Shown: positions 773 to 18,621 of the stretch, one piece after another
Layout: every line of letters begins with the position of its first letter
Numbering within the stretch: position 1 is the stretch's first letter
Notes under the pieces: model-generated
Told to the model about the DNA's origin: nothing
The model's database searches: none
What the model saw: only the letters and a program-made list of their open reading frames with translations
From: a bacterium
GTDB taxonomy: Bacteria > Electryoneota > Electryoneia > Electryoneales > Electryoneaceae
Length of the DNA stretch: 64,000 nt
Direction of reading: 5' to 3'
Assembly (NCBI GenBank): GCA_019912845.1
Contig: JAIOHU010000137.1
Coordinates: forward strand, 20,765 to 84,764
Made by a program: the position numbers and the translations under genes

Positions 773-2548
773 ATGGATCGTAATTCAATTCTCGGCTTTA
801 TCCTGATTGGCGTTATTCTGTTGACAATGCCATATTATTTAAAATTACTCGCTCCCCCCGAGGAACCCGGTGTTGCTGATACAACAAGGGTTCAAGCTCC
901 GATTGACCCTACAAAACAGTTTGACGCTGCTGTAGGAAACCCTTCGCAGGATCAATTTTCTACTGGATTCAAAGAGCAGGCTCAAGCTGTCAAATCAGAT
1001 AGCAACCAAGCCAAGGTAAAAACTGTAATCATTGAGACTCCACTGTACTCTGCGGAATTCAGTACACTCGGCGCTTCTGTTCAATCCTGGATCATCAAGC
1101 CGACAAAACCTTATCTGCAATCCTCAGAACAGATGATACGTGCACGTTATGCAAACCGTAATCTGGTCTTGCTCGCTAGAGGGGGAACTGGCTTACTTCG
1201 TACTGAGGAGAAAGTCTTTGAACCTTCTGCACTTCAAGTGGCTCTTAAAAAAGGTGACCGACCGAAAAAGTTAACTTTCACGTTACCACTGGAGAATGGG
1301 GGGTATTATAAGGAAACCTACACCATTTATCCTGATCTGTATAAAATGGATATTGAAATTGAAAGCCGTGGACTTGGCGATTTAACAGGTGCGGTCAGTG
1401 CCCTCTTTACGTGGGGAGGGGCTCTGGAGGCAACAGAGAAAGATTCCTCCCAGGATCTTTTCTATACCGAAGCTTCATACCAGATGAACCGTTCCATGGA
1501 AAAGTTCAAACCAAAAGGAAAGAAGTATGAGGAAGAGGTACCTATCGGTCCAACTGATTGGGTAGCTCAACGTGTTAAGTATTTTGTTATGGCACTCGAT
1601 CCCGAAACGCCTGCCGATGGTGCTCGACTCTCTTCCTGGCCGGATACCCTCTATCAGGGTCAACATACACCAAAGCTGATAGAAACAGGATTGCTTTTTT
1701 CACTAAAGAATGGCGAATTAGATCATAAAATCACATTGTACCTCGGACCTTTGGACAAACAGTTGATTTCCGCTGTTGATCCCTCTCTGCAGCAGACCAT
1801 GTCCTGGGGATGGCCAATCATTAAACCATTTTCTATAGCGGTACTCTGGACATTAGAGTTTCTGCATAGATTTATCCCGAATTATGGTCTCGTATTGATC
1901 ATTTTCTCCATTCTTATTAAGATAATTGTCTGGCCCCTGACCCATAAATCTCATGAATCCATGAAGCGGATGCAGTTACTTCAGCCGAAGATTAAGGAGA
2001 TTCAGGAAAAGCATAAGAATAACCCTCAGCATGCCCAAAAAGAGATTATGGCGATGTACAAGGAGCATAAGGTTAATCCCATGGGTGGGTGCTGGCCTGT
2101 AGCTCTACAGATGCCGTTGCTTTATTCTCTCTTTATAATCTTTCGCTCTACAATAGAGTTACGTGGTGCATCATTCGTTCTTTGGATCAAAGACCTATCG
2201 ATGCCCGATGTTTTATTTGAATTACCTTTTTCAATACCTCTATATGGTGATCATGTCGCATTGTTGCCTTTTATTATGTCTGCAAGTACCTATATGCAGT
2301 CAAAACAAACAATGACAGAACCATCGCAGAAACCAATGTTATACATGATGCCAATCATGTTTATCTTTCTGTTTAATAATTTTCCAAGTGGATTAACCTT
2401 GTATTATACATTGTTTAATCTACTTAGCTGGGCACAACAGCACTATATGAAGGTTAAAGCTCCTGATATCGACAAAGAGCTTAATGAAGTAAAGATGTCT
2501 AAGGCTAGAGCAGAGAGTAAAAAGGGTAAAAAACAACTTAAAAAATAA
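773..2548 (+). CDS. yidC: Membrane protein insertase YidC
   Basis: N-terminal TM, periplasmic domain, NYGLVLIIFSILIKI, KVNPMGGCWP, FPSGLTLYY motifs. Confidence 0.97.
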   Translation: MDRNSILGFILIGVILLTMPYYLKLLAPPEEPGVADTTRVQAPIDPTKQFDAAVGNPSQDQFSTGFKEQAQAVKSDSNQAKVKTVIIETPLYSAEFSTLGASVQSWIIKPTKPYLQSSEQMIRARYANRNLVLLARGGTGLLRTEEKVFEPSALQVALKKGDRPKKLTFTLPLENGGYYKETYTIYPDLYKMDIEIESRGLGDLTGAVSALFTWGGALEATEKDSSQDLFYTEASYQMNRSMEKFKPKGKKYEEEVPIGPTDWVAQRVKYFVMALDPETPADGARLSSWPDTLYQGQHTPKLIETGLLFSLKNGELDHKITLYLGPLDKQLISAVDPSLQQTMSWGWPIIKPFSIAVLWTLEFLHRFIPNYGLVLIIFSILIKIIVWPLTHKSHESMKRMQLLQPKIKEIQEKHKNNPQHAQKEIMAMYKEHKVNPMGGCWPVALQMPLLYSLFIIFRSTIELRGASFVLWIKDLSMPDVLFELPFSIPLYGDHVALLPFIMSASTYMQSKQTMTEPSQKPMLYMMPIMFIFLFNNFPSGLTLYYTLFNLLSWAQQHYMKVKAPDIDKELNEVKMSKARAESKKGKKQLKK

Positions 2549-2579
2549 ACATACGCTTTTGATTGAGTAATATGAGTTA

Positions 2580-3920
2580 ATGAACAGTTTTAATGATACA
2601 ATTGCAGCTATTGCAACCCCTGATGGCACAGGAGCCTTGGGGGTTGTCCGTTTGACCGGAGCTCAATCCCTGAACATTGCATCGCAAATGGTAGCTCCTT
2701 CCGGAAAAATGCTTCCTATTAAACCACAATTTGCAAGTTTGTTCGGAATCATTGATGGAGATGGCGACCTCATTGACCAAGCGGTTGTTTTATATTGGAA
2801 GTCTCCCAGATCGTTTACCGGCGAGGATATGGTCGAGTTTTCATGTCACGGGGGAAGAGAGGTGCTTCGTGCAGTCTATACTAGACTTCTCGAGTTAGGT
2901 GCAAGAGCTGCAGAAGCTGGCGAATTTACCCGGCGAGCTTTCCTTAATGGTAAAATGAGCCTCGATCAGACTGAAGCGGTAGCAGCATTAATAGAATCTC
3001 GAACAAGATCGGCTGTTAAGGTCTCGGCACGGATACTTGATGGCGGTTTACGCAGTAAAATCGAAGCGATACGTCAAGAGTTGATTGATATAATCTCACG
3101 TATTGAATTAGCACTTGATTTTGTTGAAGAAGAGTTGGACCATGAGTTTGCAAAGGTGACCTTACCTGGATTAGAGGAGCTCAATAAAACAGTCGATGAA
3201 TACATTCGGCAGTACGAGTCTGGAAAATTTCTCCGAAATGGTGCGAATGTGGTTATAGCTGGTCCTCCGAATGCTGGAAAGTCCACCCTGATGAATACGC
3301 TTGCTGGTTTTGAACGTGCGATTGTCAGTGATACACCTGGTACAACACGCGATTTTATTGATGTAACCCTGGACTGGAATGGAATTCCAATACGTCTATA
3401 TGATACCGCTGGTTTACGTGAGGCGATTGATGAAATTGAAAAAGTAGGCACTCTTAAAACTCGACAATTATTTGAGCACGCTGATGTTGTTGTCTGGTTG
3501 ATGTCACCACCAGGATTTGAAAAGCCTGACCACGAATTAGGAAAATTCAACAATTTGATAACTGTAGCAAATAAGAGCGACCTTTTCGAGGACATACTAA
3601 TAGACCCTGTTGCTGACCTTACTATCAGCGCTAAATATCATGATGGCGTGGAGGAGTTGCAGAATCTTGTAACACGTTTTTTATTAAAAGATTACGATCC
3701 TGGTGATCTCCTTGTTCTGGAACAACGGCAAGCCTCTCTACTACAACAGGCTAGTGATTTGATTCGCTCTGGTTCAATCAACCTCGAGACGAACCTGGGC
3801 TTGGAACTTGTTGTTACGGATTTACGTTCAGCGTTAAATTTAATCGGCGAAATCACAGGAGCTGTAAGCAGTCAGGATATTTTACACGCTATTTTCAGCC
3901 GTTTCTGTATCGGAAAATAA
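2580..3920 (+). CDS. mnmE: tRNA modification GTPase MnmE
   Basis: DTIAAIATP, GPPNAGKS, PGTTRD, DTAG, C-terminal FCIGK. Confidence 0.98.
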   Translation: MNSFNDTIAAIATPDGTGALGVVRLTGAQSLNIASQMVAPSGKMLPIKPQFASLFGIIDGDGDLIDQAVVLYWKSPRSFTGEDMVEFSCHGGREVLRAVYTRLLELGARAAEAGEFTRRAFLNGKMSLDQTEAVAALIESRTRSAVKVSARILDGGLRSKIEAIRQELIDIISRIELALDFVEEELDHEFAKVTLPGLEELNKTVDEYIRQYESGKFLRNGANVVIAGPPNAGKSTLMNTLAGFERAIVSDTPGTTRDFIDVTLDWNGIPIRLYDTAGLREAIDEIEKVGTLKTRQLFEHADVVVWLMSPPGFEKPDHELGKFNNLITVANKSDLFEDILIDPVADLTISAKYHDGVEELQNLVTRFLLKDYDPGDLLVLEQRQASLLQQASDLIRSGSINLETNLGLELVVTDLRSALNLIGEITGAVSSQDILHAIFSRFCIGK

Positions 3921-3922
3921 TT

Positions 3923-3938
3923 TGTTCCACGTGAAACA
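3923..3938. promoter_or_regulatory. parS centromere site 1
   Basis: TGTTCCACGTGAAACA, one mismatch to the palindromic parS consensus TGTTTCACGTGAAACA. Confidence 0.92.
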
Positions 3939-3960
3939 CCTGCTCATTCCAGCACCCAGA

Positions 3961-3976
3961 TGTTCCACGTGAAACA
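3961..3976. promoter_or_regulatory. parS centromere site 2
   Basis: Identical TGTTCCACGTGAAACA starting 38 bp after site 1. Confidence 0.92.
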
Positions 3977-3999
3977 CGCTTTCAGGAATATTCTCAGTT

Positions 4000-5868
4000 A
4001 TGTATGATTTACTCATTATTGGTGGGGGACATGCAGGCGTAGAAGCTGCAACCGCTGCAGCTCGTGTAGGCGTGAAGGTCGGTCTCATCACACGTGAACG
4101 TGTGGCACTGGCGCGTCTCTCATGCAACCCTGCCATGGGCGGAACTGCGAAGGGACAACTCGTTAAGGAACTGGATGCTTTAGGCGGCATTATGCCAATT
4201 GCAACAGACCTCTCCGCAATACAGTACAGAATGCTAAATAAATCTAAAGGTCCCGCTGTCTGGTCACCAAGAGCACAAGTTGACAGGGATACATACACGC
4301 AATCAATAGATGCCATTATTAGTGAACGTTATCCTGATATCGATATTATTGAAAACGAAGCTGTTGGGATAGCTACGAATGCCAGTGGTGTAGCAGGCGT
4401 GATGGTTAAAGGGGGAGAAGGGGCAATTCCCTGTAAGGCTGTCGTTATTTGCAGTGGTACCTTTTTACGGGGATTGGTACATGTAGGTGCTGAAAACTGG
4501 GAATCCGGTCGCTATAAAGAAGAACCTTCCAACCACCTTTCAGCAAATCTATCCGCACTAGGGTTTCCCCTGCTTCGTTTCAAAACAGGTACACCCCCCA
4601 GAATAATAAAGGAAACAGTTAACTTATCCATAATGGAACAACAGGATAGCGATGAAAATATCTGGTTCTTCAGTCACGAAACAAACAAACGCCACCTAAA
4701 CCAATATCCCTGTTTTCGTACCCACACCAATCAAACTACTCATGAAATAATCGGAGACAAAATTTCACTTTCACCCATGTTCAACGGTACAATTAAGTCA
4801 GTTGGTCCGCGATATTGTCCTTCGATTGAAGATAAGGTTCATCGTTTTCCAGATAGAAATAGTCATCCCCTGATATTTGAACCAGAGGGCATTGACCATC
4901 CCTGGTTATATATCAACGGATTTTCTTCGAGTCTTCCAGAAGAAGTACAACTACAGGCACTTCGTACAATTGATGGATGCGAGGAAGCTGTTATCGGGCG
5001 ACCGGGATATGCGGTAGAATATGATGTTGTACCACCACGTGAACTACGTAACACTCTGGAAACAAGACGAATCCCCGGGCTCTACCTGGCTGGACAACTT
5101 TCAGGTACATCGGGATATGAAGAAGCAGCGGTTCAAGGTTTGATAGCAGGCGCGAATGCAGCTCTGAAAATACTCAATCGAAATCCTCTTGTTCCAGGAA
5201 GAAACGATGCCTATATCGGCGTACTCATTGACGACTTAATAACTCTCGATCCTGACGAACCCTATAGAATGTTCACCAGCCGTGCAGAATATCGTCTGCT
5301 TCTCAGGCAGGATAACGCGGAAGAACGCCTCTCTGAAATGGCGTTTTCTGCGGGATTGATAGGCGAAGAGAGAATCGAAAATATCAGGGAGAGGATGGCT
5401 TCTGCCAAGTCCTGGGTCGAACGCCTGCATTCTGTAAAAACTCGAAGAGATACGGTTGTTAAAAACGATAAGGAACCAGAAAAGGTTGAAAGTGCGGCTC
5501 AACTATTGAAACGTCCTGAAGTAACACTTGATATGCTTATCGAATCTCTCGATGGTAAACTTAATCACGGTCTCAATATGTCGAAACAGACCAGGGACGC
5601 TGCTGAAATTGAAGTTGTTTACGAAGGATATATCAATCGTCAGAAAAGAGAGGTAGAGCGTCTGAAAAAGCAGGAAGAACGTGCAATCCCAGAAAACTTT
5701 GATTATACTATGTTGAAGGGACTTTCTGCTGAATCAAAATTAAAACTTGAAAATCACAGACCCTCTACAATTGGTCAGGCATCCAGGTTGTCAGGTGTAA
5801 CCCCTTCAGACCTTGCCATTTTAACGGTCTATATTAAACGTCACCAAACTCTTTCTCAGGATTCATGA
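4000..5868 (+). CDS. mnmG: tRNA uridine-5-carboxymethylaminomethyl synthesis enzyme MnmG (GidA)
   Basis: [43 protein letters not shown]. Confidence 0.98.
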
Positions 5869-6824: not shown

Positions 6825-7670
6825 CTATCCCGTACTTGCAATTCGTCTCTTTGCCCATGTTTCCAAGGTAGGGGAAAAGATATATCGATTGCCACTCATT
6901 TGCTCTACTTTTGATGAAAACAAACCGAACGACCTCTTTGTATATTCGACCCATTTACCTTTCTTTCCGACACCGTATGCATCCCCACTCGTAAGTGCTC
7001 CACCCATTATCTGGAATTCGAGGTTATTTTTGGCGAACAGTTTTTTCATCGTTGCAGTTTCATAATTAAAAGGGTGAAATACTGCCGGGTTCTTAAAACC
7101 TGTTTGAGTGCCAGCAATTTTCCAAAACTCATCAATCTTTCTTACAACCTTGTGGTTTCGTACCCTTAAAAAAAGCAAACCATCATCCAAAAGCAAATCT
7201 GCCGCCCGTTGTATCTCATCAAGTGGATTTTCAACCAGCATCAACACGTCCCAGTAGGTGATCAAATCAAATCTGCTACTTGTTTTTTTCTGCGTCGATA
7301 GAACCCCTGATTTGACGGAATGTCCTCTGCTGTTTGCTATCTCGACCAGTTGTTCTACCGGCTCAATTCCAAATGTTTCCCATCCACGATCTTTTGCTAT
7401 ATCTAAAAATCCTCCAACTCCGCATCCTATGTCCAACACGCTGCCTGGTTTGGATAAGTATTTCTCTGCCTTTCGCAGAACAGCTTGATATAGTTCCTGC
7501 TTACTTTGGTTGATGGCATAGGTCGGGTTTACCGATTCATAATATCCAGTTGAATCTTCGTGTGGTGGATCACGCCAGAGTAGGTTGCAAATTAAACACT
7601 TTCGATACAGAGATTCACCATGCTCTTCGATCTCATTGGATTCTACATTGCAAATAGGACAAGTTTTCAC
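6825..7670 (-). CDS. Class I SAM-dependent methyltransferase with N-terminal CxxC..CxxC
   Basis: CPIC..CLIC, VLDIGCGVGGFL, FDLITYWDVL; type common in polysaccharide loci. Confidence 0.88.
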   Translation of the reverse strand: MKTCPICNVESNEIEEHGESLYRKCLICNLLWRDPPHEDSTGYYESVNPTYAINQSKQELYQAVLRKAEKYLSKPGSVLDIGCGVGGFLDIAKDRGWETFGIEPVEQLVEIANSRGHSVKSGVLSTQKKTSSRFDLITYWDVLMLVENPLDEIQRAADLLLDDGLLFLRVRNHKVVRKIDEFWKIAGTQTGFKNPAVFHPFNYETATMKKLFAKNNLEFQIMGGALTSGDAYGVGKKGKWVEYTKRSFGLFSSKVEQMSGNRYIFSPTLETWAKRRIASTG

Positions 7671-9166
7671 AATTTACCCCCATACGAAGAGAATTCTGCT
7701 TTTTGTTGTTGTTTTATAAAACGCTCGATGGAGTTAATGTCTTGGTCGATTTCCTCTTCCTCCAGAAAACCTGGGAGCACGATGACCATAGCCGTGAGAA
7801 ACCAGAAGGGCTCCATCACACGGACGATAATAAAAGTATTCGCACCGACAGCATGTGTTAGTAACCCAAAAAAGCTGGCTATAAACCCAGCAACAATACC
7901 ATAGTATTGTGGAAACCTTTTCTCATTAATTTTTTTCAAACTTTTCCTTGCATTCACAAAAACGCTTGCGAGTACCCAGGCAAACAGGCTGAATCCCACA
8001 ACACCAGTTTCTACTAGAACACGGAAATATTGTGCATCCTTAAAGCCTGCACCAGTAACTCCATAACCAAATATTGGACGTTTTGTCCATTGCTCCAGCG
8101 TACTTGTCCACGATTGAATTCGGAGAGAGGTAGAAGGATCCAGGCTTGTATCACCCAAATCAACAACATCGGTTCTAAGCGTGTTTTCATCAGAAAAAGT
8201 ATATTCTACACGTTCGATTACCGCTTCAGGAATAAAAGCTGGTGAAGCGAGGACAGTAACAGCCAGCACTGCGATGATATATTTTCGTTTGGGTGAAAAT
8301 GCGATCATGACCAGAATAGAAGGAAAGAATGAAATCCATGAAGAGCGTGACAGGGTGTAGGCGAAAGGAAGCATCATCAACAGTAAAAAAGCCCCTAAAC
8401 CAACCATTGCATTGATTTTTTTTGTGCCTGTCATGATTCCAATGACAATGAACATGATAATTATCAGATACCCGCCAAGTGTGTTAGCTTCACCCGCTTT
8501 CCCTTCAAATGGTGCGGAGACTCGTACCCCGGAAGGAATTTGAATAATTGCATAGACTGACACGATAAATGCGGTCACAAGCAACAGTGTAATATAACGA
8601 TTAAATGTTTTTATGTTTCTAATATGCGAAGAAACCATGAAGTAGATCATGAAATATTGAAAATATTTAACGTTATACAGAATTCCAACCAGTGGTTTGA
8701 CGTCGTTGGTAAATATCCCGAGGATGGTGGAAAACAAGCTGGCGAGAATATAGGCGAAGATCGGTTTGTTCAGCGGGGTTTTGATAAAAATACCGATATC
8801 TTTATTCAGGGCTGTTTTTGCAAGCCAGGAAAGCGTAATGATGCCCAGCAAGACATCATCCACACGAATCACGACATCCCTTTGCGCTGCCATGCTGCCT
8901 TCGGCAGCACCACTACCAGATCCAAATTCAGGTGACAACAACATGGAGAGAATCAGCATGGAAAGAGCAAAGTCGGTGTTCACGAAAGCGAAGAGAAAAA
9001 TTACCACACCAGCAAGGAGGTAAATGGCGAGAGATTCGTTCGCGCCTACAAGCTGGCTGATCCCCAGGGCGGATATAATTATTACAAAAGCTGCCAGGAC
9101 GGAGAAAACTTTAGAGTTAGAGTTAAAAAACGTATCAGAGAGAAAGTTTGCCATCACCAACCTCAC
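7667..9166 (-). CDS. O-antigen ligase / Wzy-like polymerase family membrane protein
   Basis: About 12 hydrophobic segments, EANTLGGYL, TLSRSSW, R..W..RPIFGYG, LVETGVVG. Confidence 0.88.
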   Translation of the reverse strand: MRLVMANFLSDTFFNSNSKVFSVLAAFVIIISALGISQLVGANESLAIYLLAGVVIFLFAFVNTDFALSMLILSMLLSPEFGSGSGAAEGSMAAQRDVVIRVDDVLLGIITLSWLAKTALNKDIGIFIKTPLNKPIFAYILASLFSTILGIFTNDVKPLVGILYNVKYFQYFMIYFMVSSHIRNIKTFNRYITLLLVTAFIVSVYAIIQIPSGVRVSAPFEGKAGEANTLGGYLIIIMFIVIGIMTGTKKINAMVGLGAFLLLMMLPFAYTLSRSSWISFFPSILVMIAFSPKRKYIIAVLAVTVLASPAFIPEAVIERVEYTFSDENTLRTDVVDLGDTSLDPSTSLRIQSWTSTLEQWTKRPIFGYGVTGAGFKDAQYFRVLVETGVVGFSLFAWVLASVFVNARKSLKKINEKRFPQYYGIVAGFIASFFGLLTHAVGANTFIIVRVMEPFWFLTAMVIVLPGFLEEEEIDQDINSIERFIKQQQKAEFSSYGGKL

Positions 9167-11499
9167 TTCTCTTTCTTACTGAACATGGAGGTTGTCTCCT
9201 TGATTCTCTCCCCGATTTTTCGGATAAAACCGTTCTTCTCTTCCGCTTTCATTGTGGTTTGTGTTTTTTGGTCTGGTCTGCCATAATAACGCCCATAATA
9301 GTAATGTGAGCCAGCATAACCAGCGATATCCGCCTTCAGGTCGTTCAGTACCACTCCAAGAACATTTGCACCTACAGACTCTATCTGCACTTTCGCACGT
9401 TTCAGGGCTGCACGTGGAACTTTACCGGTACGATAAATCAACAGCGTTGCATCTGCACGATTTGACAGAATGGCAGCGTCTGTAACGGGTAGAATCGGAG
9501 GAACATCAAATAACACGATATCGAATTCTTGAGATGCTTCTTCCATAAATTGTTTCATTTTAGCGGATGCAAGCATTTCTGAAGGATTGGGCGGTACACC
9601 ACCGCTAGTGATGATATGCAGGTTCTCCATACCGGGGGTCATTAAAATGGATTCCATGCCCATCTCGCCCATAATAATATCGGTAACGGTACGGATCGTT
9701 TCCTGCCATTTTTTTCTACCCAGTACGATATCTGTTACCCCGGGTTCCTGTTCAAGTCCAAAAATTCGATACAGGGTGGGACGCCTCAGGTTGCATCCTA
9801 CGAGCAATGTTCTGGTACCACTCTGAGCCAAAGTGATCGCAAGATTAACAAGGGTGGTTGATTTACCTTCCTGCAAAGAAGCTGAAGTAGCTACCAAGGT
9901 TCGGATTTGGCGTGAAATAGACCTGAATTGAAGATTTGTTCGCAATGAACGGTATGCCTCTGCCACAGGGTCTTTGGGTGCAAAATGGGTAACCAGGCGT
10001 GCTGATGAAGCCAGGTTGGGATTGTTCTCCAGCATCGGATTCTGTTCGACCAATCGATCAGAAACCGCTTCAATGTCAATGTGGGGGATAACCCCCATAA
10101 CGGGTACCTGTAAATACTCCTCAACATCCTCAATTGTCCCGATAGATGTATCAAAAGTTTCGAAAAGAAAGGCAAGGACAAGCCCCAGCATCAATCCGAT
10201 GACGATACCAACGCTTATGGTTCGGAACATATTGATATTAATAGGAGAAGAGTTCAACATCGCAGGACGAACAACCATCACCTCATCTGCTTGATCTGCT
10301 TCACGTATCAACGCTTCCTGATGTTTCTCGGTAAGGAAAGCATATTGATTTTCGCGTAAACTTACTTCTCTAAGCAGTTGTGAATATAGGCGTTGCGTAC
10401 GTGGAACACTATCCAAAATCGCACTGATATTATTGATATATGCTGAAAGCGAATCCTTCTTTTGTTCCATCAGCGACAAATTGCCGCTGACTTCAGAGAC
10501 CAATTCGCGGATCAAATCCTTAATTTGAGACTCAAGATCTACGATCTTGGGATAAGTGGGGCGGTAATCTTTCAGTAATTCGCTTTTCTGAACCTCTAAT
10601 GAAACCAATCGTTCATTTAACAAACCAAGTGGACCGGAACCTTCTTCTGAGCTGATCCAATCAATGTCATATTCTTGTGAAAGCTCTTCTTCACCCGAAT
10701 AACTTATCGACCCATCCGCAAGGATAGTTGGATTTCTCAGCCCGCTCCCATTTGTTTTTGGCTGAATACGTTCCTGTAGTTGATCGCGCTGGAGCCGAAG
10801 TTCTTTTATACGTTCAGCTAAATTTCTCTTTTGTTGTTCAATGTTTATCAACTCTTCGATGCGAATTTTGATGTGATCATCAAGAACCGGGTAAGGGTTT
10901 TGCTCACGATAATTCTGCATCTGCTCTTCGGCGGCATTCAATGCTGCCTTGGAAAAGCGTAACTGCTCCTCAATAAATTCCCTGGTTTCACGATCCTGTC
11001 GCGTTCTCTGTTCGAGGTGTTCCTCAGAAAAAACTTCGGCAAGGTTCTGGGAGATTTCCCGTGCTTCATAGGGATCATCTGAGGTGACATATATATCTAT
11101 GATATTGGTTCTACCATTTCGTTCGGTAGAAACCTTGGAAATCATATTATTGATCAGGGCGGATAGCTTGGTATCCTGACGAATTTCTCGTGCTGACATA
11201 GCGTTGTCGATCAAACCCATCCGTTTGGCAACTTTTTCCATCACAGGAAAGCTTTGTATCAATTCCTGGGCGGTGGCAATGTTGTCCCAACGTGTATAGG
11301 TAAGCTTTTGCAGCAGCAAGCCTGCGACGGTATTCGTTTCTTCAATCTTTACAGAAGAATAAGTCTGATAGAGAGGGAGTCGCGAGCGACCGAAAAAATA
11401 GCTGAATACAGCCACCAGAAGCGTAGCAAATAACACTACTTTCCAGCGTCTGCGGAAAATTCGTTGATAATCACGTAAATTCAGGTCGTATTGCGCCAT
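9163..11499 (-). CDS. wzc: Polysaccharide co-polymerase / BY-kinase (Wzc-like)
   Basis: Wzz-like N-terminus with 2 TMs, coiled coil, AEAYRSLRTNL, Walker A QEGKST, FDVPP, C-terminal Tyr cluster YAGSHYYYGRYY. Confidence 0.92.
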   Translation of the reverse strand: MAQYDLNLRDYQRIFRRRWKVVLFATLLVAVFSYFFGRSRLPLYQTYSSVKIEETNTVAGLLLQKLTYTRWDNIATAQELIQSFPVMEKVAKRMGLIDNAMSAREIRQDTKLSALINNMISKVSTERNGRTNIIDIYVTSDDPYEAREISQNLAEVFSEEHLEQRTRQDRETREFIEEQLRFSKAALNAAEEQMQNYREQNPYPVLDDHIKIRIEELINIEQQKRNLAERIKELRLQRDQLQERIQPKTNGSGLRNPTILADGSISYSGEEELSQEYDIDWISSEEGSGPLGLLNERLVSLEVQKSELLKDYRPTYPKIVDLESQIKDLIRELVSEVSGNLSLMEQKKDSLSAYINNISAILDSVPRTQRLYSQLLREVSLRENQYAFLTEKHQEALIREADQADEVMVVRPAMLNSSPININMFRTISVGIVIGLMLGLVLAFLFETFDTSIGTIEDVEEYLQVPVMGVIPHIDIEAVSDRLVEQNPMLENNPNLASSARLVTHFAPKDPVAEAYRSLRTNLQFRSISRQIRTLVATSASLQEGKSTTLVNLAITLAQSGTRTLLVGCNLRRPTLYRIFGLEQEPGVTDIVLGRKKWQETIRTVTDIIMGEMGMESILMTPGMENLHIITSGGVPPNPSEMLASAKMKQFMEEASQEFDIVLFDVPPILPVTDAAILSNRADATLLIYRTGKVPRAALKRAKVQIESVGANVLGVVLNDLKADIAGYAGSHYYYGRYYGRPDQKTQTTMKAEEKNGFIRKIGERIKETTSMFSKKEK

Positions 11500-11521
11500 G
11501 AACCCTGTTCCACAATTGCTT

Positions 11522-12226
11522 TTATATCACAACAAGTAAGATTACAATTTGCAGACCGATTGAAACAGCCTGTAGATATCTATTAACTGTCACAATCCAT
11601 TTTTCCTCTTTAACCGGAACAAAGACTCTGTCACCAGGCTGTAACAGGATGTTTTGTGACGTATCGCCAAATTCGAAAAATGCGTTAAGATCAATAAGAA
11701 TAAGGTCTCCATTTGATCTTAAAATAGTGATCTGTTCAAGATTTGCACCGGGTTGGACTCCACCATACCTCGCAATAAAATTGGCAAGCCGCATCCCCGG
11801 AGGTAAACTGTATTCACCCTGGGAAATAACAGATCCGAGAAGAGATACTTTCTGGCCTAGAAATTCCAGAACTTCAATTCGTAATACTGGATTTACCACA
11901 TACTTCTGCATTTTATTTCGCAACAATCCCTCCGCCTGTTTCAGCGTGAGCCCGGTAACTGCAACCTCGCCAACCAACGGAAAATAAATTGTGCCATCAT
12001 TCTGGATTACCAGGTCAACCTTTTTCCCCTCGTCATCAAGGCTACGTTGACCAAAGTAGGTTATTCGGAGACGATCCCCCACCCCCAGCAGATATCCTTC
12101 AGGAACCTTCATCGCTGGTGCGCTCTCTTCAACAGGGTTCATCTGTGCGAAAGAATTCGTATAAATTCCCGCAGTAATGCATAAGATTAATATTAGTATC
12201 TGCCGTATCAACGTATTATCCTTCAC
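11522..12226 (-). CDS. wza: Polysaccharide export protein (Poly_export + SLBB, Wza-like)
   Basis: Signal peptide, YLLGVGDRL, DGTIYFPLVGEV, GLTL, LQPGDRVFVP. Confidence 0.88.
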   Translation of the reverse strand: MKDNTLIRQILILILCITAGIYTNSFAQMNPVEESAPAMKVPEGYLLGVGDRLRITYFGQRSLDDEGKKVDLVIQNDGTIYFPLVGEVAVTGLTLKQAEGLLRNKMQKYVVNPVLRIEVLEFLGQKVSLLGSVISQGEYSLPPGMRLANFIARYGGVQPGANLEQITILRSNGDLILIDLNAFFEFGDTSQNILLQPGDRVFVPVKEEKWIVTVNRYLQAVSIGLQIVILLVVI

Positions 12227-12590
12227 TCGAAATCATACGCGCAAGAACGCTTGTTTCAAGATAATCAAGATCAATTGGCTTTACGACAAAATCGGACGCC
12301 CCCATACTCGGAGCTTCAATGCCGATATTTCTGTCATGAACGCCAGTCACCATGATAATACCAATATCCGCATTCAGTTTTTTTATTTTCTTGAGCAAAT
12401 CCAGACCATTTGTTTCTGGGATCAAGATGTCCAGGAGAATTATGGTGGGAAAATTCTGAATAATCTTCTGCATCGCACGTTCAGGGGAAGTGGCATAATC
12501 GGCAGCATACCCTTTAGAGAGGAAGAAGTCGACAAGAATTTTACATACTTCGACTTCATCATCGATAACCAGGATGCTATTTTTTATCAT
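12216..12590 (-). CDS. Single-domain response regulator (receiver only)
   Basis: ILVIDDE, LLDILIP..NG, MVTG, DFVVKP; ATG at 12590 follows GGAG. Confidence 0.9.
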   Translation of the reverse strand: MIKNSILVIDDEVEVCKILVDFFLSKGYAADYATSPERAMQKIIQNFPTIILLDILIPETNGLDLLKKIKKLNADIGIIMVTGVHDRNIGIEAPSMGASDFVVKPIDLDYLETSVLARMISSEG

Positions 12591-12626
12591 CCGATACTCC
12601 TGCCCCAAAATACCAACTTTGGATAT

Positions 12627-13541
12627 TCAGTTTGAAAGTGAACCTGTTGATTTGTAAACAGTCCTTGCGATGCTGGCGGCCGTATCAATATCTGCCTCCA
12701 TTTGCACAGGAACGCGTTGCAGTAGCTCTGAGAGCATTTGAAGAGTTGATGCGGCTATGTTATCAAAATAAGTCAGTGACAGCAATTTCATAATCAATTT
12801 TGCCTGTCGATTGTCTGTCATATCAATGGAATCATCCAGCAGGATAATTCGTTTCAGTGTTGCAGATTGTGACCAGGGAACATGATCTGGAGACAATCTT
12901 CTTTTCCCACTTGGCTCCAACTGATTCGCCTGCCATTGCGGAAAGCGAGTCCATACGTCTTGAAATGCGCGTGGACCATCCCCCATTCCATAAATAATGT
13001 GTGAATCGCCATCTCTGCTGAGGAAGACCATATCATCTGCGATCAGTTTTCCACCTTCTGCTACTAACTGAAGTGCGCAGGATGTTTTTCCCGACCCCGT
13101 TTCACCGGCGAACATAATGCCCATACCGTTCATCTCAACAGCGCTGGCATGGATTCCACGCATGCCTCTCGCAGCAAATGGGGGCAACAGTGCGGGCAGG
13201 ATAATTTGGTCCATAATGTCGGTTGCCCGGTTCCACGCCCACTGGGGCAAAAAAATACTCCCTGTTCCCGCTCTTGGATGAACTTCGATGAAGGTTCCCA
13301 TTTGTGGGTGAGTCCAAACCAGCCGCGTCTTATCACCGTACGCCCTGGTGTTTCCTCTTTGCAGACTGGTTTCTGTGTCGGGAGGAACCACCTTCAGTAC
13401 CCCCACCCCAACATTAAAATGAATGTCAGGGTCAGTCTGGTTTTCACTGGCAATCGGAAATCCTGCCGGAAAGTTTATATTTGGAACCCCGGTTTCAATG
13501 GTAAATCCGACTCGTATATCACCAAACTTTCTAACGATCAA
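12627..13541 (-). CDS. HPr kinase-like P-loop kinase (putative peptide Ser/Thr kinase)
   Basis: IHASAV, Walker A GETGSGKT, IADD motif; lacks a canonical HprK N-domain; directly after PqqD gene. Confidence 0.85.
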   Translation of the reverse strand: MIVRKFGDIRVGFTIETGVPNINFPAGFPIASENQTDPDIHFNVGVGVLKVVPPDTETSLQRGNTRAYGDKTRLVWTHPQMGTFIEVHPRAGTGSIFLPQWAWNRATDIMDQIILPALLPPFAARGMRGIHASAVEMNGMGIMFAGETGSGKTSCALQLVAEGGKLIADDMVFLSRDGDSHIIYGMGDGPRAFQDVWTRFPQWQANQLEPSGKRRLSPDHVPWSQSATLKRIILLDDSIDMTDNRQAKLIMKLLSLTYFDNIAASTLQMLSELLQRVPVQMEADIDTAASIARTVYKSTGSLSN

Positions 13542-13544
13542 CGT

Positions 13545-13814
13545 CTATGCCTTTGTAAATCCTGATTCTCTTAGCTTGACAAGAAACTTTTCTACCAGCG
13601 GTTCAATCTCTGTCCGCGATGGAGCATTCTTCATTCTAGTCAATTCTACTTCTATTTCATCCACATTCTGTGCATTGGAAAGCGCACGCCAGACCGTCGC
13701 ACCGGTATGGTTCAATACTAGATATTCACCATTCTCTTTTAGAAGTAGTAAGCCTTCATCCACGTCCTGCTCAACAACACCATCTACCGGACGCGGGAGA
13801 TCACTATCCCACAT
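13545..13814 (-). CDS. PqqD family RiPP recognition element (stand-alone RRE)
   Basis: 89 aa, YLVLNHTGATVWRAL, VEKFLVKLRESGF. Confidence 0.92.
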   Translation of the reverse strand: MWDSDLPRPVDGVVEQDVDEGLLLLKENGEYLVLNHTGATVWRALSNAQNVDEIEVELTRMKNAPSRTEIEPLVEKFLVKLRESGFTKA

Positions 13815-14006
13815 AACATTTTCCCTAAAGCTGAATCAGATTCGTCGAATCGCTTATATTGTGAGAAATAAAATTTCTAAAAATATGAATATCTCATTCC
13901 AACATAAACAAGAAGTCCACACCGGACTGCCATTCTATCTTCTTCTTGCTGCTTTACTATAATTTAGTAAGATACTTCAACTACAATGAAATACGCAACC
14001 AGAATA

Positions 14007-15185
14007 TCATGTAAAGTAAGACTTTTTCGGTTCCTGCCTATTTATTCCAAACCCTCTGCTCAACCGATTGAGAACATATTGAACCAATGATATTTCAGGA
14101 TCATCAAACTCACGTAACAACGCTTTCGGAGGAAATAAAAGCCGTTTGAGGTAACCGAACGCTTCACTGCGGCTGTCCTGTAGGTCAATTAATCCCGTGA
14201 GACGTCGCAGGTTGCGAGGAGAGACATCTTTACCTCGCATGATTAACGAGGGAGGTCTACGGTTTAATGTTCTTTGTATTTCGACTATTGACGTATCAAC
14301 CGCTAAATTCTTCGGTCTAAATCTGAATATCTTTTGTGTCAGTGCGATGCTGGTGTTGACCGCTTTTGAAATTCTCCAGTCTTTTGTTCGTTTTCTGAAT
14401 AACTCCTCGTCCAGTTCAATCTCGTTTGAGTTCAACAAGCAATAAATATCATAGAACCAGGTTATCTTAAAGTAAGCATGGCGTACACTGTGAAGTGCAA
14501 GTATGGCAAGGTGATCTTCGACCGATGGCGCAGAGACAGCGAGATTTTTATCAATGGATAAATATCGCTTACATTTTAACAAATCTGAAGAAGGAATCCA
14601 GAAAGGCTCAGTGCGATCAACTACTGCCCGATGTAAATCCAGGGTAATTGGAATTTCTGGATGGCGTAACACAAGAGCAAAACCGTATTGTTCAGCAATT
14701 TTCTTTTCTCGTTTCCAGTGGACACTTTTCTGAAGCGTCCAGCCATTGTCGCAAAAAACTTCAACAACATCATCAAACTGATCAATCTGAACCAAAATAT
14801 CCAAGTCACCTGGATGACGATTTTGAGGATTTGGATGGTAGAATGCTGCGAGCAACCCTTTGAAATAGATGTAATTATATCCTGATAGTAGTGCGATAGT
14901 GTCCTTCAAGGCTGTTTTAGCCAGACGGTTCCTGGCGATTGCCTGATGTTTTGCGATCTTTAATTTATCAATTTCTCCCTGGTTCAATAGTTCCTGCCAT
15001 CCATAAATTTCCACTACGGTTTCATACGCCCTGGCTGAAAGCTCGTTATGGTTTAAGAATGGAATCAGGTCATGCGGAATGGAGGTAATTTTTCCTGGGG
15101 GTACTTTGGTCAGCAGTTTAACAACAACATCTAAATAAAGACGAGGATCGACCATTAGATTCTGCTTTTCAGGGCTTCCATCCAA
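14007..15185 (-). CDS. Nucleotidyltransferase family protein (NTP_transf_5-like)
   Basis: FKG..Y..R..DLDILV catalytic motif, LDLH, LALHSVRH..WFYDI. Confidence 0.88.
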   Translation of the reverse strand: MDGSPEKQNLMVDPRLYLDVVVKLLTKVPPGKITSIPHDLIPFLNHNELSARAYETVVEIYGWQELLNQGEIDKLKIAKHQAIARNRLAKTALKDTIALLSGYNYIYFKGLLAAFYHPNPQNRHPGDLDILVQIDQFDDVVEVFCDNGWTLQKSVHWKREKKIAEQYGFALVLRHPEIPITLDLHRAVVDRTEPFWIPSSDLLKCKRYLSIDKNLAVSAPSVEDHLAILALHSVRHAYFKITWFYDIYCLLNSNEIELDEELFRKRTKDWRISKAVNTSIALTQKIFRFRPKNLAVDTSIVEIQRTLNRRPPSLIMRGKDVSPRNLRRLTGLIDLQDSRSEAFGYLKRLLFPPKALLREFDDPEISLVQYVLNRLSRGFGINRQEPKKSYFT

Positions 15186-15571
15186 TTTCTTATCCGCCAG
15201 AGTAATGGAATTTCCATTGGGTGAATAATTCCAGATCGTTTCACGTGTGTGATCATACCGATCAAATGTTCGCGGCTAAAGGGATGAACGATTCTCGAAT
15301 GATCACCACTTTCAAAAAGAAATTTATCACCGATTCCCACCAGTCGATGGACAACGGTGTTTTGATTTCCCGGATTTAAACGAAACACCAGCATACCGCA
15401 TTGCAGTAGCTGGTGTTCAACACTTTTCAGAGGTACTACCCGGACAAAGTCCCCGTCAACCAATGTGGGACGCATTGACCCCCCTCTCACTTGTATCCAG
15501 AAGGGTGTCTCAAGTTTTTTCAGGTGCTTCAGGCCGTTTGGCTCAGGGACCCCAAGGATCGGGTTCGTCAC
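15155..15571 (-). CDS. Soluble S24/S26 family peptidase (Ser-His type); start uncertain
   Basis: GGSMRPTL..GD, VVHRL, ESGD; no TM anchor. In-frame GTG at 15571 preferred over ATG 15652, which lies deep inside the precursor ORF. Confidence 0.82.
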   Translation of the reverse strand: MTNPILGVPEPNGLKHLKKLETPFWIQVRGGSMRPTLVDGDFVRVVPLKSVEHQLLQCGMLVFRLNPGNQNTVVHRLVGIGDKFLFESGDHSRIVHPFSREHLIGMITHVKRSGIIHPMEIPLLWRIRNWMEALKSRI

Positions 15572-15671
15572 TGAAGAGCCGTGCTTCAACTTTTCCTGTT
15601 TCAAGAATCTCGGGATCTTCCCAAACTTGTTCTTGCGAATGGTGCTCTTCATCTTTTCGTGATTCCATCAT
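15543..15671 (-). CDS. Putative RiPP precursor peptide, 42 aa (absent from ORF track)
   Basis: MMESRKDEEHHSQEQVWEDPEILETGKVEARLFSDEPDPWGP*; AGGTGG SD-like sequence upstream; W-x-x-P-x-I-x-x-x-G leader; first gene of an RRE-containing cluster. Confidence 0.8.
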   Translation of the reverse strand: MMESRKDEEHHSQEQVWEDPEILETGKVEARLFSDEPDPWGP

Positions 15672-15720
15672 CCACCTGCTTGATTAAAAGATCATTTAGC
15701 GATTAATTCCTGACGTTATA

Positions 15721-15749
15721 AAAGTGATTCAAAGAGGCTCTCCTGTCAA
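15721..15749 (-). promoter_or_regulatory. Candidate sigma70-type promoter for the precursor operon
   Basis: TTGACA-17bp-CACTTT (weak -10; TATAAC follows immediately), about 50 bp upstream of the precursor start. Confidence 0.35.
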
Positions 15750-16150
15750 GACTCCAGGGACAATGAAAAAAATCCAATTACTCATAGGAGAAAAATAAAA
15801 ATTATAGATTCAAGTCTCACGAAAGACTCTACTCACCTCAAAAATCGCTCACTCAACAATTACTCAAAGCACTACAAAGAGAGACAACTATTCAACGCCC
15901 CAAAGGGGGCTGTAAATTTTCTTCAAGAAACACTTTAACTAATTTGTTCAAAATAGAAAAGACTGTTCCTTGCCAAACGTGGGGAGAAATTCAAGATTCT
16001 CAGTGCAGAACTTCAGTATCTAGAAGTGTCTGGTTGTGCCGAACTTTACTATTTTATAACGTCTTCTGAAGACTTGGCAAACATAGGAATTCAAAGCTTA
16101 ACAAACAACTCTTCCTACCAAATCTCCAAAGTTATTTTCTTGTGATCCAT

Positions 16151-18621
<2,471 letters not shown>

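What the first reader, a model, noticed from the sequence alone, without database searches (positions are those of the whole stretch)
15543..15671. Hidden 42-aa precursor with lasso-register leader and a 9-residue Ser-first core (SDEPDPWGP)
Seen: the - strand reads MMESRKDEEHHSQEQVWEDPEILETGKVEARLFSDEPDPWGP* after an AGGTGG SD-like sequence. It is below the ORF cutoff and masked by the over-extended 15155-15652 call in another frame. Established: lasso leaders follow [YW]xxPxLxxxGxxxxxT at -17/-14/-12/-8/-2. Inference: W17, P20, I22 and G26 fit that spacing and put core residue 1 at Ser34, the only Ser/Thr after the leader Gly and so a natural kinase target. The -2 Thr is replaced by Leu, consistent with no B2 protease, and 9 residues is too short for a threaded lasso. 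An alternative signal-peptidase-like cut after V-E-A would release RLFSDEPDPWGP.
Basis: partly seen in the sequence, partly recalled or inferred. Interest (0 to 1): 0.88.

Follow-up and report, generated by a model that had tools for sequence, protein, structure and literature searches.

The report
Precursor peptide of phosphorylated linear RiPP
The 42-codon reading frame is a real, strongly conserved small gene that most likely encodes the substrate peptide of a recently described kind of phosphorylated ribosomal peptide pathway, here found in an uncultured phylum at the head of a polysaccharide-export operon.

Summary
The ORF at 15543-15671(-) exists as described. It is under clear purifying selection in its own frame. 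Over 14 homologues, codon-position entropy is 0.59/0.43/1.34 bits, and 0.16/0.17/1.10 over the last 11 codons. The C-terminus LFSDEPDP[WF]G is almost invariant.

The peptide was found in 14 of 79 genomes of the phylum. These are the same 14 that carry the orthologue of the neighbouring nucleotidyltransferase (cut-off chosen after seeing the data).

The gene set is peptide, Ser/His/Asp signal-peptidase-like protease, NTP_transf_5, PqqD-type RRE and HprK-like kinase. It has no lasso cyclase or B2 protease, and it lies inside a Wza/Wzc/Wzy locus. This matches the "linear polyphosphorylated peptide" (LPP) family described in Bacillota in 2026 (PMC13381572).

The preferred "Ser-first 9-residue core" does not.

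It differs from published LPPs in three ways: no exporter, a 12-residue invariant core, and a different phylum.

Verdict: a new member of a known kind, of moderate interest.

The parts
15543..15671 (-). 42-aa precursor peptide gene (stop TGA at 15543-15545)
   Evidence: Sequence and ORF. Conservation and codon-position pattern. No Pfam or NCBIfam model matches it.
15603..15623 (-). Leader motif W17-E-D-P20-E-I22-L23, the presumed RRE-binding motif ([Y/W]xxPx[L/V/I])
   Evidence: W or Y in 14 of 14, P in 14 of 14, I in 13 of 14 copies. The motif is described for lasso and LPP leaders in PMC13381572. The complex prediction with the PqqD gave weak support.
15582..15590 (-). V28-E29-A30, the proposed -3/-2/-1 positions of the leader cleavage site
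   Evidence: [VI]-E-A occurs in all 10 copies of the gyrB-linked type in A1. It matches F-E-T(-1) of LppA and aligns with the A|R-G-[WY]-S junction of paralogous precursors. This is an inference.
15546..15581 (-). Proposed 12-residue core RLFSDEPDPWGP. Ser34 (15570-15572) is the proposed phospho-acceptor.
   Evidence: LFSDEPDP[WF]G is invariant or nearly so. By precedent, the HprK-like kinases LppK and BsfK phosphorylate core Ser3. This is an inference.
15155..15652 (-). Signal-peptidase-I-like (S26/S24) Ser-His-Asp leader peptidase. The longest ORF is shown; the real start is probably GTG at 15569-15571, or TTG at 15589 or 15604.
   Evidence: Weak hits, below the curated cut-offs, to Peptidase_S26, Peptidase_S24, sigpep_I_arch and sigpep_I_bact, starting at residue 46-53. 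GxSMxP, V-H-R and a later Asp are kept in 11 of 11 orthologues. The alignment to SpsB puts His where SpsB has its Lys. A GTG start would place Ser/His/Asp at 32/75/90, against LppS 29/68/93.
14007..15185 (-). NTP_transf_5 nucleotidyltransferase (counterpart of LppN/PsmN)
   Evidence: Pfam PF14907, 106 bits, E 2.7e-30. It is the only copy in the genome. Its orthologue co-occurs with the peptide in 14 of 79 genomes.
13545..13814 (-). Discrete PqqD-type RRE
   Evidence: Pfam PqqD, 35.5 bits. Closest NCBIfam model is lasso_PqqD_Strm, E 5e-8, below its cut-off. Closest solved chains are the lasso RREs TbiB1 (E 1.4e-9) and 9x90_B (E 1.3e-7).
12627..13541 (-). HprK-like P-loop kinase
   Evidence: Pfam Hpr_kinase_C, 44 bits. 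The His, the P-loop Lys and (D/E)-D are invariant in 12 orthologues. This corresponds to the His-Lys-Asp-Asp motif of lasso-tailoring kinases (review PMC9266682).
12216..12608 (-). Single-domain response regulator
   Evidence: Pfam Response_reg. Kept at this position in L041, L042, L043, L079 and L082.
7667..12226 (-). Polysaccharide export genes directly downstream: Wza-like (11522-12226), Wzc-like tyrosine autokinase (9163-11499), Wzy_C/O-antigen-ligase-like (7667-9166)
   Evidence: Synteny is kept in the family.

Best explanation
The ORF encodes the precursor (A peptide) of an LPP-type pathway, a linear cousin of the phosphorylated lasso peptides.

Proposed steps:
1. The discrete PqqD-type RRE (13545-13814) binds the leader motif W17xxPxIL.
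2. The RRE presents the peptide to the HprK-like kinase (12627-13541), which phosphorylates Ser34, perhaps several times.
3. The soluble signal-peptidase-like Ser/His/Asp enzyme (about 15155-15571) removes the leader. The most likely cut is after V28-E29-A30, releasing RLF(pS)DEPDPWGP.
4. The NTP_transf_5 enzyme (14007-15185) may add a further group, such as a hexose, to the phosphate.

Shown here: the gene is real and selected; its leader motif and core are conserved; it co-occurs and is syntenic with these four enzymes; catalytic motifs are intact.

Inferred from characterised relatives: RRE binding, the phospho-site, the cut site and any glycosylation.

Unknown: the final product and its role. 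The role probably relates to the Wza/Wzc/Wzy polysaccharide machinery that follows in the same direction.
For: 1. The gene is real and selected in its own frame.

2. Synteny gyrB-peptide-(peptidase)-NTP_transf_5-PqqD-HprK-(RR)-Wza-Wzc holds in the same family. The peptide is 45-85% identical, while the adjacent NTP_transf_5 is only 31-37% identical.

3. Phyletic co-occurrence. The peptide is in 14 of 79 phylum genomes. NTP_transf_5 hits with E<=1e-9 are in the same 14. The 6 other genomes with hits have only weak ones, E 1.5e-7 to 1e-3. In G018 the peptidase-NTP-PqqD-HprK quartet lies on another contig than the peptide.

4. Enzymes look active. The peptidase keeps GxSMxP, His and Asp in 11 of 11. 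The kinase keeps His, the P-loop Lys and (D/E)D in 12 of 12. The NTase has G-D-L-D.

5. Paralogous clusters in the phylum (L093, L096, L098, L099) encode precursor-PqqD-P-loop kinase-S24/S26 peptidase-(ABC transporter)-NTP_transf_5. Their precursors share [YF]ExPx[LI]...A[RKQ]G[WY]S and align with this peptide.

6. Precedent. [quoted passage not shown] They lack a cyclase and lie in capsular polysaccharide loci. The leader is YxxPxVLxHQxIxFET, core Ser3 is polyphosphorylated by LppK, and the leader is cut by LppS only with the RRE present (PMC13381572, sections 6, 11, 12 and passages of 7-10). BsfK phosphorylates core Ser3 and is stimulated by the RRE (PMC10368454). PsmN is needed to add hexose to the phospho-Ser (PMC6993621).

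7. Complex prediction of PqqD with the peptide: score 0.56, best of 3 controls 0.02, verdict 'weak support'. The mark was reached by 58 of 80 solved complexes and 2 of 110 mismatched pairs. At 0.60 or under, only 7 of those 80 solved complexes reached it, and so did both mismatches that passed. The runs agree in at least 91% of contacts, and the partner's pLDDT is at least 57. RRE-leader complexes have been solved, so the pass may reflect likeness only.
Against: - No biochemical, proteomic or RNA evidence exists for this organism.
- No exporter lies in the cluster, whereas LPP clusters carry an MsbA-like pump.
- LPP precursors have variable C-termini. Here the C-terminus is the most conserved part, which is unusual for a natural-product core.
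- The distance from the aromatic residue to the proposed cut is 2 residues shorter than in LppA and the paralogues (W at -14, not -16). Ser would be +4, not +3.
- In the second type of copy the -1 residue is Val or Ile, not Ala.
- The peptidase is missing from 2 of 9 syntenic loci that extend far enough (L036, L043).
- Peptidase, RRE and kinase all score below NCBIfam cut-offs, and the peptidase is also below Pfam's.
- Copies in other families of the phylum lie next to T9SS-tailed proteins or B12 radical-SAM genes rather than next to these enzymes.
- The 1e-9 cut-off in the co-occurrence count was chosen after seeing the data, and related genomes are not independent.
Confidence: 0.72

Rival explanations
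1. A conserved micro-protein that is not modified by the neighbouring enzymes. It would act through its acidic Pro/Trp tail, for example as a partner or regulator of the polysaccharide machinery, or of the T9SS-tailed proteins that follow it in other lineages.
For: The C-terminus is invariant, like a binding motif. In families f4 and f7 and in metagenome contigs the gene sits directly upstream of T9SS-tailed proteins. Peptide subtypes (WGCGP, or EPNPWGP) pair with protein subtypes. There is no exporter in the window cluster.
Against: The peptide carries a lasso/LPP-type leader motif. It co-occurs with the enzyme set even where unlinked. Paralogous clusters have the same leader directly upstream of the PqqD gene.
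Confidence: 0.12
2. A cis-acting regulatory leader or ribosome-arrest peptide. Its conserved Pro-rich end (PDPWGP-stop) would stall ribosomes and so control the downstream gene.
For: Selection acts on amino acids at the very C-terminus, which ends in Pro-stop in most copies. The peptide lies immediately upstream of, or overlapping, different downstream genes.
Against: The C-terminus after WG varies: P, GP, none, PCGP, CGP(W), GCGP. The last codon and the stop codon vary too. Distance to the next gene runs from overlap to about 110 nt or more. Related precursors have long, different C-termini. Co-occurrence with unlinked enzymes is not explained. There is no hydrophobic segment for force sensing.
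Confidence: 0.06
3. A true (threaded) lasso peptide precursor.
For: The leader motif is in lasso register (W at -17 relative to Ser34). The RRE is closest to lasso B1 proteins. Language-model neighbours include lasso leader families, but at low scores of 0.77-0.79.
Against: No Transglut_core3 (B2) was found in the 92% complete genome. There is no asparagine-synthetase-like cyclase among the cluster ORFs. There is no Thr at -2. There is no acidic residue at position 7-9 of a Ser34-first core.
Confidence: 0.01
4. Not a gene. The conservation would belong to the N-terminus of the peptidase, read from ATG 15652.
For: That frame is open in the window and in most syntenic loci, and tblastn aligns it from residue 2-5 in several.
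Against: Variation falls on the third positions of the peptide frame. Identity is 0.67 against 0.36, and there are stops in the peptidase frame in 3 of 14 copies. The peptide occurs without any peptidase downstream. Orthologous peptidases start after the peptide stop in some loci.
Confidence: 0.02

Closest known systems
Linear polyphosphorylated peptides (LPP; lppA-K-B-S-D-N of Paenibacillus alginolyticus), Popov et al., Nat Commun 2026, PMC13381572
   Same: [quoted passage not shown]
- There is no cyclase.
- The cluster is embedded in a polysaccharide locus with a tyrosine autokinase.
- The leader has [Y/W]xxPx[V/I]L, then hydrophobic-Glu-small residue before the cut.
- A Ser lies a few residues into the core.
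   Different: - The phylum differs. The paper's discussion calls LPPs restricted to Bacillota. Its supplementary lists could not be seen.
- There is no MsbA-like pump in this cluster.
- The core has only about 12 residues and is invariant, whereas LPP cores are variable and up to about 170 residues.
- The aromatic residue is Trp at -14, not Tyr at -16.
- Ser is at +4, not +3.
- The RRE profile is closer to the lasso RRE TbiB1 (E 1.4e-9) than to 9x8z_B, 'PqqD family protein' (E 0.25). I did not verify which entry is LppB.
Bsf-type and paeninodin/pseudomycoidin-type phosphorylated lasso peptides (BsfK/BsfB1/BsfN; PadeK; PsmK/PsmN)
   Same: - An HprK-like kinase acts on the linear precursor.
- BsfK is stimulated by the RRE and targets core Ser3.
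- The YxxPxL leader is shared.
- A non-Thr residue at -2 is tolerated.
- An NTP-transferase homologue adds hexose to the phospho-Ser (PMC10368454; PMC6993621; review PMC9266682).
   Different: Those clusters have a macrolactam cyclase and a B2 cysteine protease and make lariat peptides. Here neither was found.
Bacillus subtilis SipW and archaeal/ER-type signal peptidase I
   Same: A Ser-His(-Asp) catalytic set replaces Ser-Lys. The LppS relationship to SipW is stated in PMC13381572.
   Different: There is no N-terminal membrane anchor in the window protein. The presumed substrate is a cytoplasmic leader, not a signal peptide.
NCBIfam HprK-related kinase A/B (TIGR04352, TIGR04355)
   Same: Distant HprK-like P-loop kinases. 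From recall only, not from any call, these occur with a PqqD homologue near exopolysaccharide genes of Proteobacteria.
   Different: Scores are 23 and 35 bits against cut-offs of 200, so it is not a member.

Membership tests
LPP (linear polyphosphorylated peptide) RiPP clusters | Archaeal-type (SipW-like, Ser-His-Asp) signal peptidase I as leader peptidase | tested here: met
   GxSMxP, V-H-R and a later Asp are kept in 11 of 11 orthologues. His aligns with the catalytic Lys of SpsB. Hits to sigpep_I_arch, sigpep_I_bact, Peptidase_S26 and Peptidase_S24 are all below the curated cut-offs.
LPP (linear polyphosphorylated peptide) RiPP clusters | Discrete RRE (PqqD-like) | tested here: met
   Pfam PqqD, 35.5 bits against a cut-off of 23.4. 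Best solved relatives are lasso RREs.
LPP (linear polyphosphorylated peptide) RiPP clusters | HprK-like kinase | tested here: met
   Hpr_kinase_C, 44 bits against a cut-off of 33.3. The His, the P-loop Lys and (D/E)D are invariant in 12 sequences.
LPP (linear polyphosphorylated peptide) RiPP clusters | Uncharacterised NTP transferase | tested here: met
   PF14907, 106 bits. That LppN and PsmN belong to PF14907 is assumed from their description as 'uncharacterised NTP transferase'. It was not tested.
LPP (linear polyphosphorylated peptide) RiPP clusters | MsbA-like ABC exporter in the core set | tested here: not met
   No ABC domain was found among the nine cluster ORFs scanned with Pfam, which run from 7667 to 15671. 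Paralogous clusters L093 (Pfam ABC_tran) and L096 (596-aa ORF at the same position, not scanned) do have one.
LPP (linear polyphosphorylated peptide) RiPP clusters | No macrolactam cyclase or B2 protease needed | tested here: met
   No Transglut_core3 in the genome. No Asn-synthase-like ORF among the cluster ORFs scanned.
LPP (linear polyphosphorylated peptide) RiPP clusters | Precursor motif YxxPxVLxHQxIxFETxxS (Y-16, P-13, L-10, F-3, E-2, T-1, S+3) | tested here: inconclusive
   WxxPxIL and V-E-A are present, but the spacer is 2 residues shorter, Ser is at +4, and there is no H-Q. Paralogous precursors fit Y-16/P-13 if they are cut after Ala.
LPP (linear polyphosphorylated peptide) RiPP clusters | (Poly)phosphorylation of the core Ser, and RRE-dependent leader cleavage | not testable with these tools
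   Needs expression and mass spectrometry.
Lasso peptides | Asn-synthetase-like cyclase, B2 cysteine protease, Thr at -2, and an acidic residue at core position 7-9 | tested here: not met
   Position -2 is Leu, and a Ser34-first core has no Asp or Glu at 7-9.
NCBIfam HprK_rel_A / HprK_rel_B system | Score above the curated cut-off (200 bits) | tested here: not met
   23.4 and 35.2 bits.

The most novel reading that the evidence does not exclude
The invariant 12-residue phospho- or phosphoglyco-peptide is not an exported natural product. It would be a dedicated component of the Wza/Wzc/Wzy polysaccharide machinery, acting as primer, anchor or regulator.

This would explain three things:
- why the core is frozen across families;
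- why this cluster has no exporter;
- why LPP-type clusters sit next to tyrosine-autokinase polysaccharide loci in two unrelated phyla (Bacillota and this FCB-group candidate phylum).

The extra copies beside T9SS-tailed FG-GAP proteins and B12 radical-SAM genes would then mark further uses of the same scaffold.
Probability: 0.2. Interest if true: 0.8.

Novelty: new member of a known kind. Interest (0 to 1): 0.5.

Why it matters
LPPs were described only in 2026. Their final product and their role are unknown, and the authors call them restricted to Bacillota.

This locus shows the same enzyme logic in an uncultured phylum; two related records are titled Ca. Electryonea clarkiae and Ca. Tariuqbacter arcticus. 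Again it sits beside a tyrosine-autokinase polysaccharide operon. That makes the link to polysaccharide export look functional rather than accidental.

The very short, invariant core (RLFSDEPDPWGP) is a simpler substrate than the 45-residue LppA core. It should be easier to use for finding out what the nucleotidyltransferase adds.

It is also a practical warning. The precursor overlaps the over-extended start of the peptidase gene, so gene callers easily miss it.

Tried and rejected
- **Programmed +1 frameshift joining peptide and peptidase.** Rejected. The last sense codon is CCC, CCG, CCA, CCT, GGA or TGG, and the stop is TGA, TAA or TAG. The peptidase is absent from some loci.
- **Covariation "Ser present only where a kinase is present".** Rejected. 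The 299-324-aa proteins of L096 and L098 have no Pfam hit but keep the His, the P-loop and DDE in an alignment.
- **The search for homologous proteins with the peptide.** No candidate shared enough 5-residue words. This reflects the word index, because the HMM search later found 9 called proteins. A tenth hit, P0007, is a 1115-aa tandem-repeat protein matched 20 times by a weak stretch. It is an artefact.
- **Pfam and NCBIfam on all 14 peptides at E up to 10.** Only two single chance hits.
- **Protein atlas.** The best neighbours are unnamed clusters at 0.88. Lasso-leader families appear at 0.77-0.79, which is a lead only.
- **PDB profile search with the peptide.** Only a non-significant chance match (E 0.56) to a short LYSDEPDP stretch.
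- **Intergenic region 15672-16150.** No Rfam match at E up to 1. Promoter- and terminator-like sites are at shuffle level.
- **Sequencing runs.** No RNA holder is listed. The five holders are DNA runs labelled bioreactor metagenome, three of them with small shares that I did not lay.
- **Supplementary files.** Not opened. Supplementary Data 1-2 and Fig. 1 of PMC13381572 may list non-Bacillota members and bear on the novelty claim.
- **Genome-wide search for an Asn-synthase-type cyclase.** Not run. Only the cluster ORFs were scanned.
Full report
**Observation.** The minus strand at 15671..15543 reads MMESRKDEEHHSQEQVWEDPEILETGKVEARLFSDEPDPWGP*. It is listed as a 42-aa ATG ORF. It overlaps by 110 nt the longest ORF of the next gene, 15155..15652, which lies in another frame.

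**Context.** The gene order on the minus strand is:
- gyrB (16151-18175)
- a 480-nt spacer
- the peptide
- an S26/S24-like peptidase
- NTP_transf_5 (14007-15185)
- PqqD (13545-13814)
- an HprK-like kinase (12627-13541)
- a receiver-only response regulator
- Wza-like, Wzc-like and Wzy_C-like genes

The peptidase domain hits begin at residue 46-53 of the 165-aa ORF and lie below the curated cut-offs. The spacer has no Rfam match and only background promoter- and terminator-like sites.

**Is it a gene?**
- A six-frame search of 41 genomes (40 relatives plus the window's own) found clear homologues (E 4e-7 or better) in 13 besides the window's own: 10 of 15 in the same family, and 3 in two other families of the phylum.
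- A profile search of all 79 held genomes of the phylum gave 14 with the peptide.
- In the alignment of 14 copies (A1), P20, L32, F33, S34, D35, E36, P37, P39 and G41 are invariant. I22, E29, D38, W40 and P42 are nearly so.
- Nucleotide variation lies at third positions of this frame: 0.59/0.43/1.34 bits, and 0.16/0.17/1.10 over the last 11 codons.
- In those 11 codons, 415 differing codon pairs are synonymous and 95 are not. Amino-acid identity is 0.67 in this frame and 0.36 in both others, at 0.66 nucleotide identity. The peptidase frame carries stops in 3 of 14 copies.
- The peptide is better conserved (45-85% identity) than the adjacent NTP_transf_5 (31-37%).

The peptide frame is therefore the coding frame, and the long peptidase ORF is over-extended.

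**Where the peptidase starts.** This varies between loci. One locus has an ATG 2 nt after the peptide stop. Others have only starts inside the peptide's 3' end. In the window, GTG 15569-15571 would put Ser/His/Asp at 32/75/90, close to LppS S29/H68/D93. A conserved +1 frameshift site was looked for and not found.

**Distribution.**
- A scan of one genome per species (185,579 species) for LFSDEPDP gave 51 pattern matches, of which 13 encode a relative. All are MAGs. Two record titles name Ca. Electryonea clarkiae and Ca. Tariuqbacter arcticus.
- The metagenome scan gave 85 pattern matches and 18 tblastn passes. Of these, 17 are family members, several of them duplicates, and one (L091) is an unrelated 80-aa ORF.
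- An HMM search of 1.84 billion representative proteins found 9 called members of 42-54 aa and one repeat artefact.
- No Pfam or NCBIfam model matches.

**Linkage to the enzymes.**
- In the window's family, the order dnaN-DUF721-gyrB-peptide-(peptidase)-NTP-PqqD-HprK-(RR)-Wza-Wzc is kept.
- The peptidase is missing in 2 of the 9 species-representative loci that extend far enough (L036, L043).
- In one genome the set is split by a rearrangement. Peptide-peptidase-NTP lie on one contig, and PqqD-HprK-Wza-Wzc-Wzy on another.
- Across the 79 genomes, NTP_transf_5 hits at E<=1e-9 occur in exactly the 14 genomes with the peptide. Six other genomes have only weaker paralogues. I chose that cut-off after seeing the data, and relatives are not independent.
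- In G018 (another family) the quartet peptidase-NTP-PqqD-HprK lies on a contig without the peptide, and the peptide is on another contig.

**Enzyme features.**
- The peptidase keeps G-x-S-M-x-P, V-H-R and a later Asp in 11 of 11 sequences. In the alignment with S. aureus SpsB, its His stands where SpsB has the catalytic Lys. This is the archaeal/SipW type.
- The kinase keeps a His, the P-loop Lys and (D/E)-D in 12 of 12. This corresponds to the His-Lys-Asp-Asp motif reported for lasso kinases (review PMC9266682, passages).
- The RRE profile is closest to the solved lasso RREs TbiB1 (E 1.4e-9) and 9x90_B (E 1.3e-7).
- The genome (92% complete) has no Transglut_core3 (B2) match, only one NTP_transf_5 and two PqqD genes.
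- A complex prediction of the RRE with the peptide scored 0.56 against 0.02 for the best of 3 controls, with the verdict 'weak support'. In calibration the mark was reached by 58 of 80 solved and 2 of 110 mismatched pairs. At 0.60 or under, only 7 of those 80 solved complexes reached it, and so did both mismatches that passed. Contact agreement is at least 91% and the partner's pLDDT at least 57. Solved RRE-leader complexes exist, so this may show likeness only.

**Paralogous clusters.** Other loci of the phylum (L093, L096, L098, L099) encode a small ORF, then PqqD, then a 299-324-aa P-loop kinase (no Pfam hit, but His, P-loop and DDE kept). An S24/S26-like peptidase follows, then an ABC transporter in L093 (Pfam) and probably in L096, and then NTP_transf_5.

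Their small ORFs read, for example...DYEPPELIEIDLLDESARGWSEPPPP... and ...EYEKPELEEIELLDETAKGYSPEPDPP.... MAFFT aligns A-[RKQ]-G-[WY]-S with A-R-L-F-S of the window peptide, with a 2-residue gap in the latter. If these are cut after the Ala, their Tyr is at -16 and their Pro at -13.

**Comparison with the literature.** Popov et al. 2026 (PMC13381572; I read the outline, sections 6, 11 and 12, and passages of 4 and 7-10; no supplements) describe LPPs.
- There is no cyclase, and the clusters often lie in capsular polysaccharide loci.
- Precursors carry YxxPxVLxHQxIxFETxxS.
- LppK polyphosphorylates core Ser3.
- LppS (S29/H68/D93) cuts after T-1 only with the RRE present.
- Y-16 and P-13 are needed for binding; F-3, E-2, T-1 and L-10 are needed for cleavage.
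- The final product and the role are unknown.
- The authors call LPPs restricted to Bacillota.

BsfK of a Bradymonas lasso cluster phosphorylates core Ser3 and is stimulated by the RRE (PMC10368454, section 25 and passages). PsmN is required to add one or two hexoses to the phospho-Ser (PMC6993621, passages). A search for 'linear polyphosphorylated peptide' found only the 2026 paper.

**Reading.** The window cluster has four of the five LPP core genes, lacks cyclase and B2, and lies in a polysaccharide locus. Its peptide has the RRE motif, a hydrophobic-Glu-small triplet (V-E-A) and a Ser shortly after. I therefore read it as an LPP-type precursor.

The cut site is not settled:
- A30|R31 is favoured by the F-E-T analogy and by the paralogue alignment.
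- L32|F33 would keep the -16 register.

The differences from published LPPs are the lack of an exporter, a 12-residue invariant core, Trp instead of Tyr in most copies of this type, and the phylum.

**Unexplained.** In other families and in metagenome contigs, the peptide lies directly upstream of large T9SS-tailed proteins. Pfam confirmed Por_Secre_tail on the three that were scanned, one of which also has FG-GAP repeats. Other copies lie between B12 radical-SAM genes, of which one was scanned. Some of these copies end in WGCGP, WGCGPW, WGGCGP or WGPCGP.

FG-GAP/T9SS proteins also flank the paralogous clusters. Their relation to the peptides is open.

**Verdict.** The precursor reading is supported, with the alternative cut site preferred. 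This is a new member of a kind known since 2026, of moderate interest, mainly because it carries the LPP-polysaccharide link into a second, unrelated phylum.

Noticed in passing
L029:2516-5356; L030:186-5307; L031:2060-5698; L087:2176-7297; L089:3-2458; L083:195-2245: In other families of the phylum and in metagenome contigs, the peptide gene lies directly upstream of 720-895-aa proteins with a T9SS C-terminal sorting domain. Three were scanned, and one of them has FG-GAP repeats. Copies ending in WGCGP(W) pair with a 734-735-aa type, and EPNPWGP copies pair with a 721-722-aa type.
   Followed up: partly
L032:447-1931; L084:747-1370; L086:3-2137: Some peptide copies sit immediately before a B12-binding radical-SAM gene, and in L084 and L086 also after another radical-SAM-like gene. 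The L032 copy has Asn for the conserved Ser and no start codon after an in-frame stop, so it may be decayed.
   Followed up: partly
L093:220-10994; L096:148-8839; L098:4435-7684; L099:1724-6001: These are paralogous LPP-like clusters: precursor, PqqD, divergent P-loop kinase, S24/S26 peptidase, sometimes an ABC transporter, and NTP_transf_5. Their longer Pro/Gly/Asp-rich precursors share the YExPE[LI] leader. L093 has two precursor-PqqD pairs flanking a 1581-aa FG-GAP T9SS protein. L099 has a radical-SAM/SPASM gene upstream and a Cys-rich precursor.
   Followed up: partly
L092 (G000:C196) 1336-4005: The genome's only other PqqD gene is followed by a 354-aa ORF that looks like an ATP-grasp enzyme, and a 481-aa ORF that looks like a PLP-dependent Orn/DAP/Arg decarboxylase. 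I judged both by eye from the translations, with no family scan. This may be another RRE-dependent pathway.
   Followed up: no
window 15672-16150: The spacer between gyrB and the peptide is 480 nt here, but only about 25-250 nt in the relatives' loci. It has no Rfam match and no ORF of note.
   Followed up: partly
L071 and L073 (G002): In one relative the cluster is split. PqqD-HprK-Wza-Wzc-Wzy lie next to an inverted dnaN-DUF721-gyrB block, while peptide-peptidase-NTP_transf_5 lie on another contig.
   Followed up: no
window 15155-15185 / 14007-15185: The peptidase gene's 3' end overlaps the longest ORF of the NTP_transf_5 gene by 31 nt, which starts at TTG 15185. The Pfam domain begins at residue 39, so that start may also be over-extended.
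   Followed up: no
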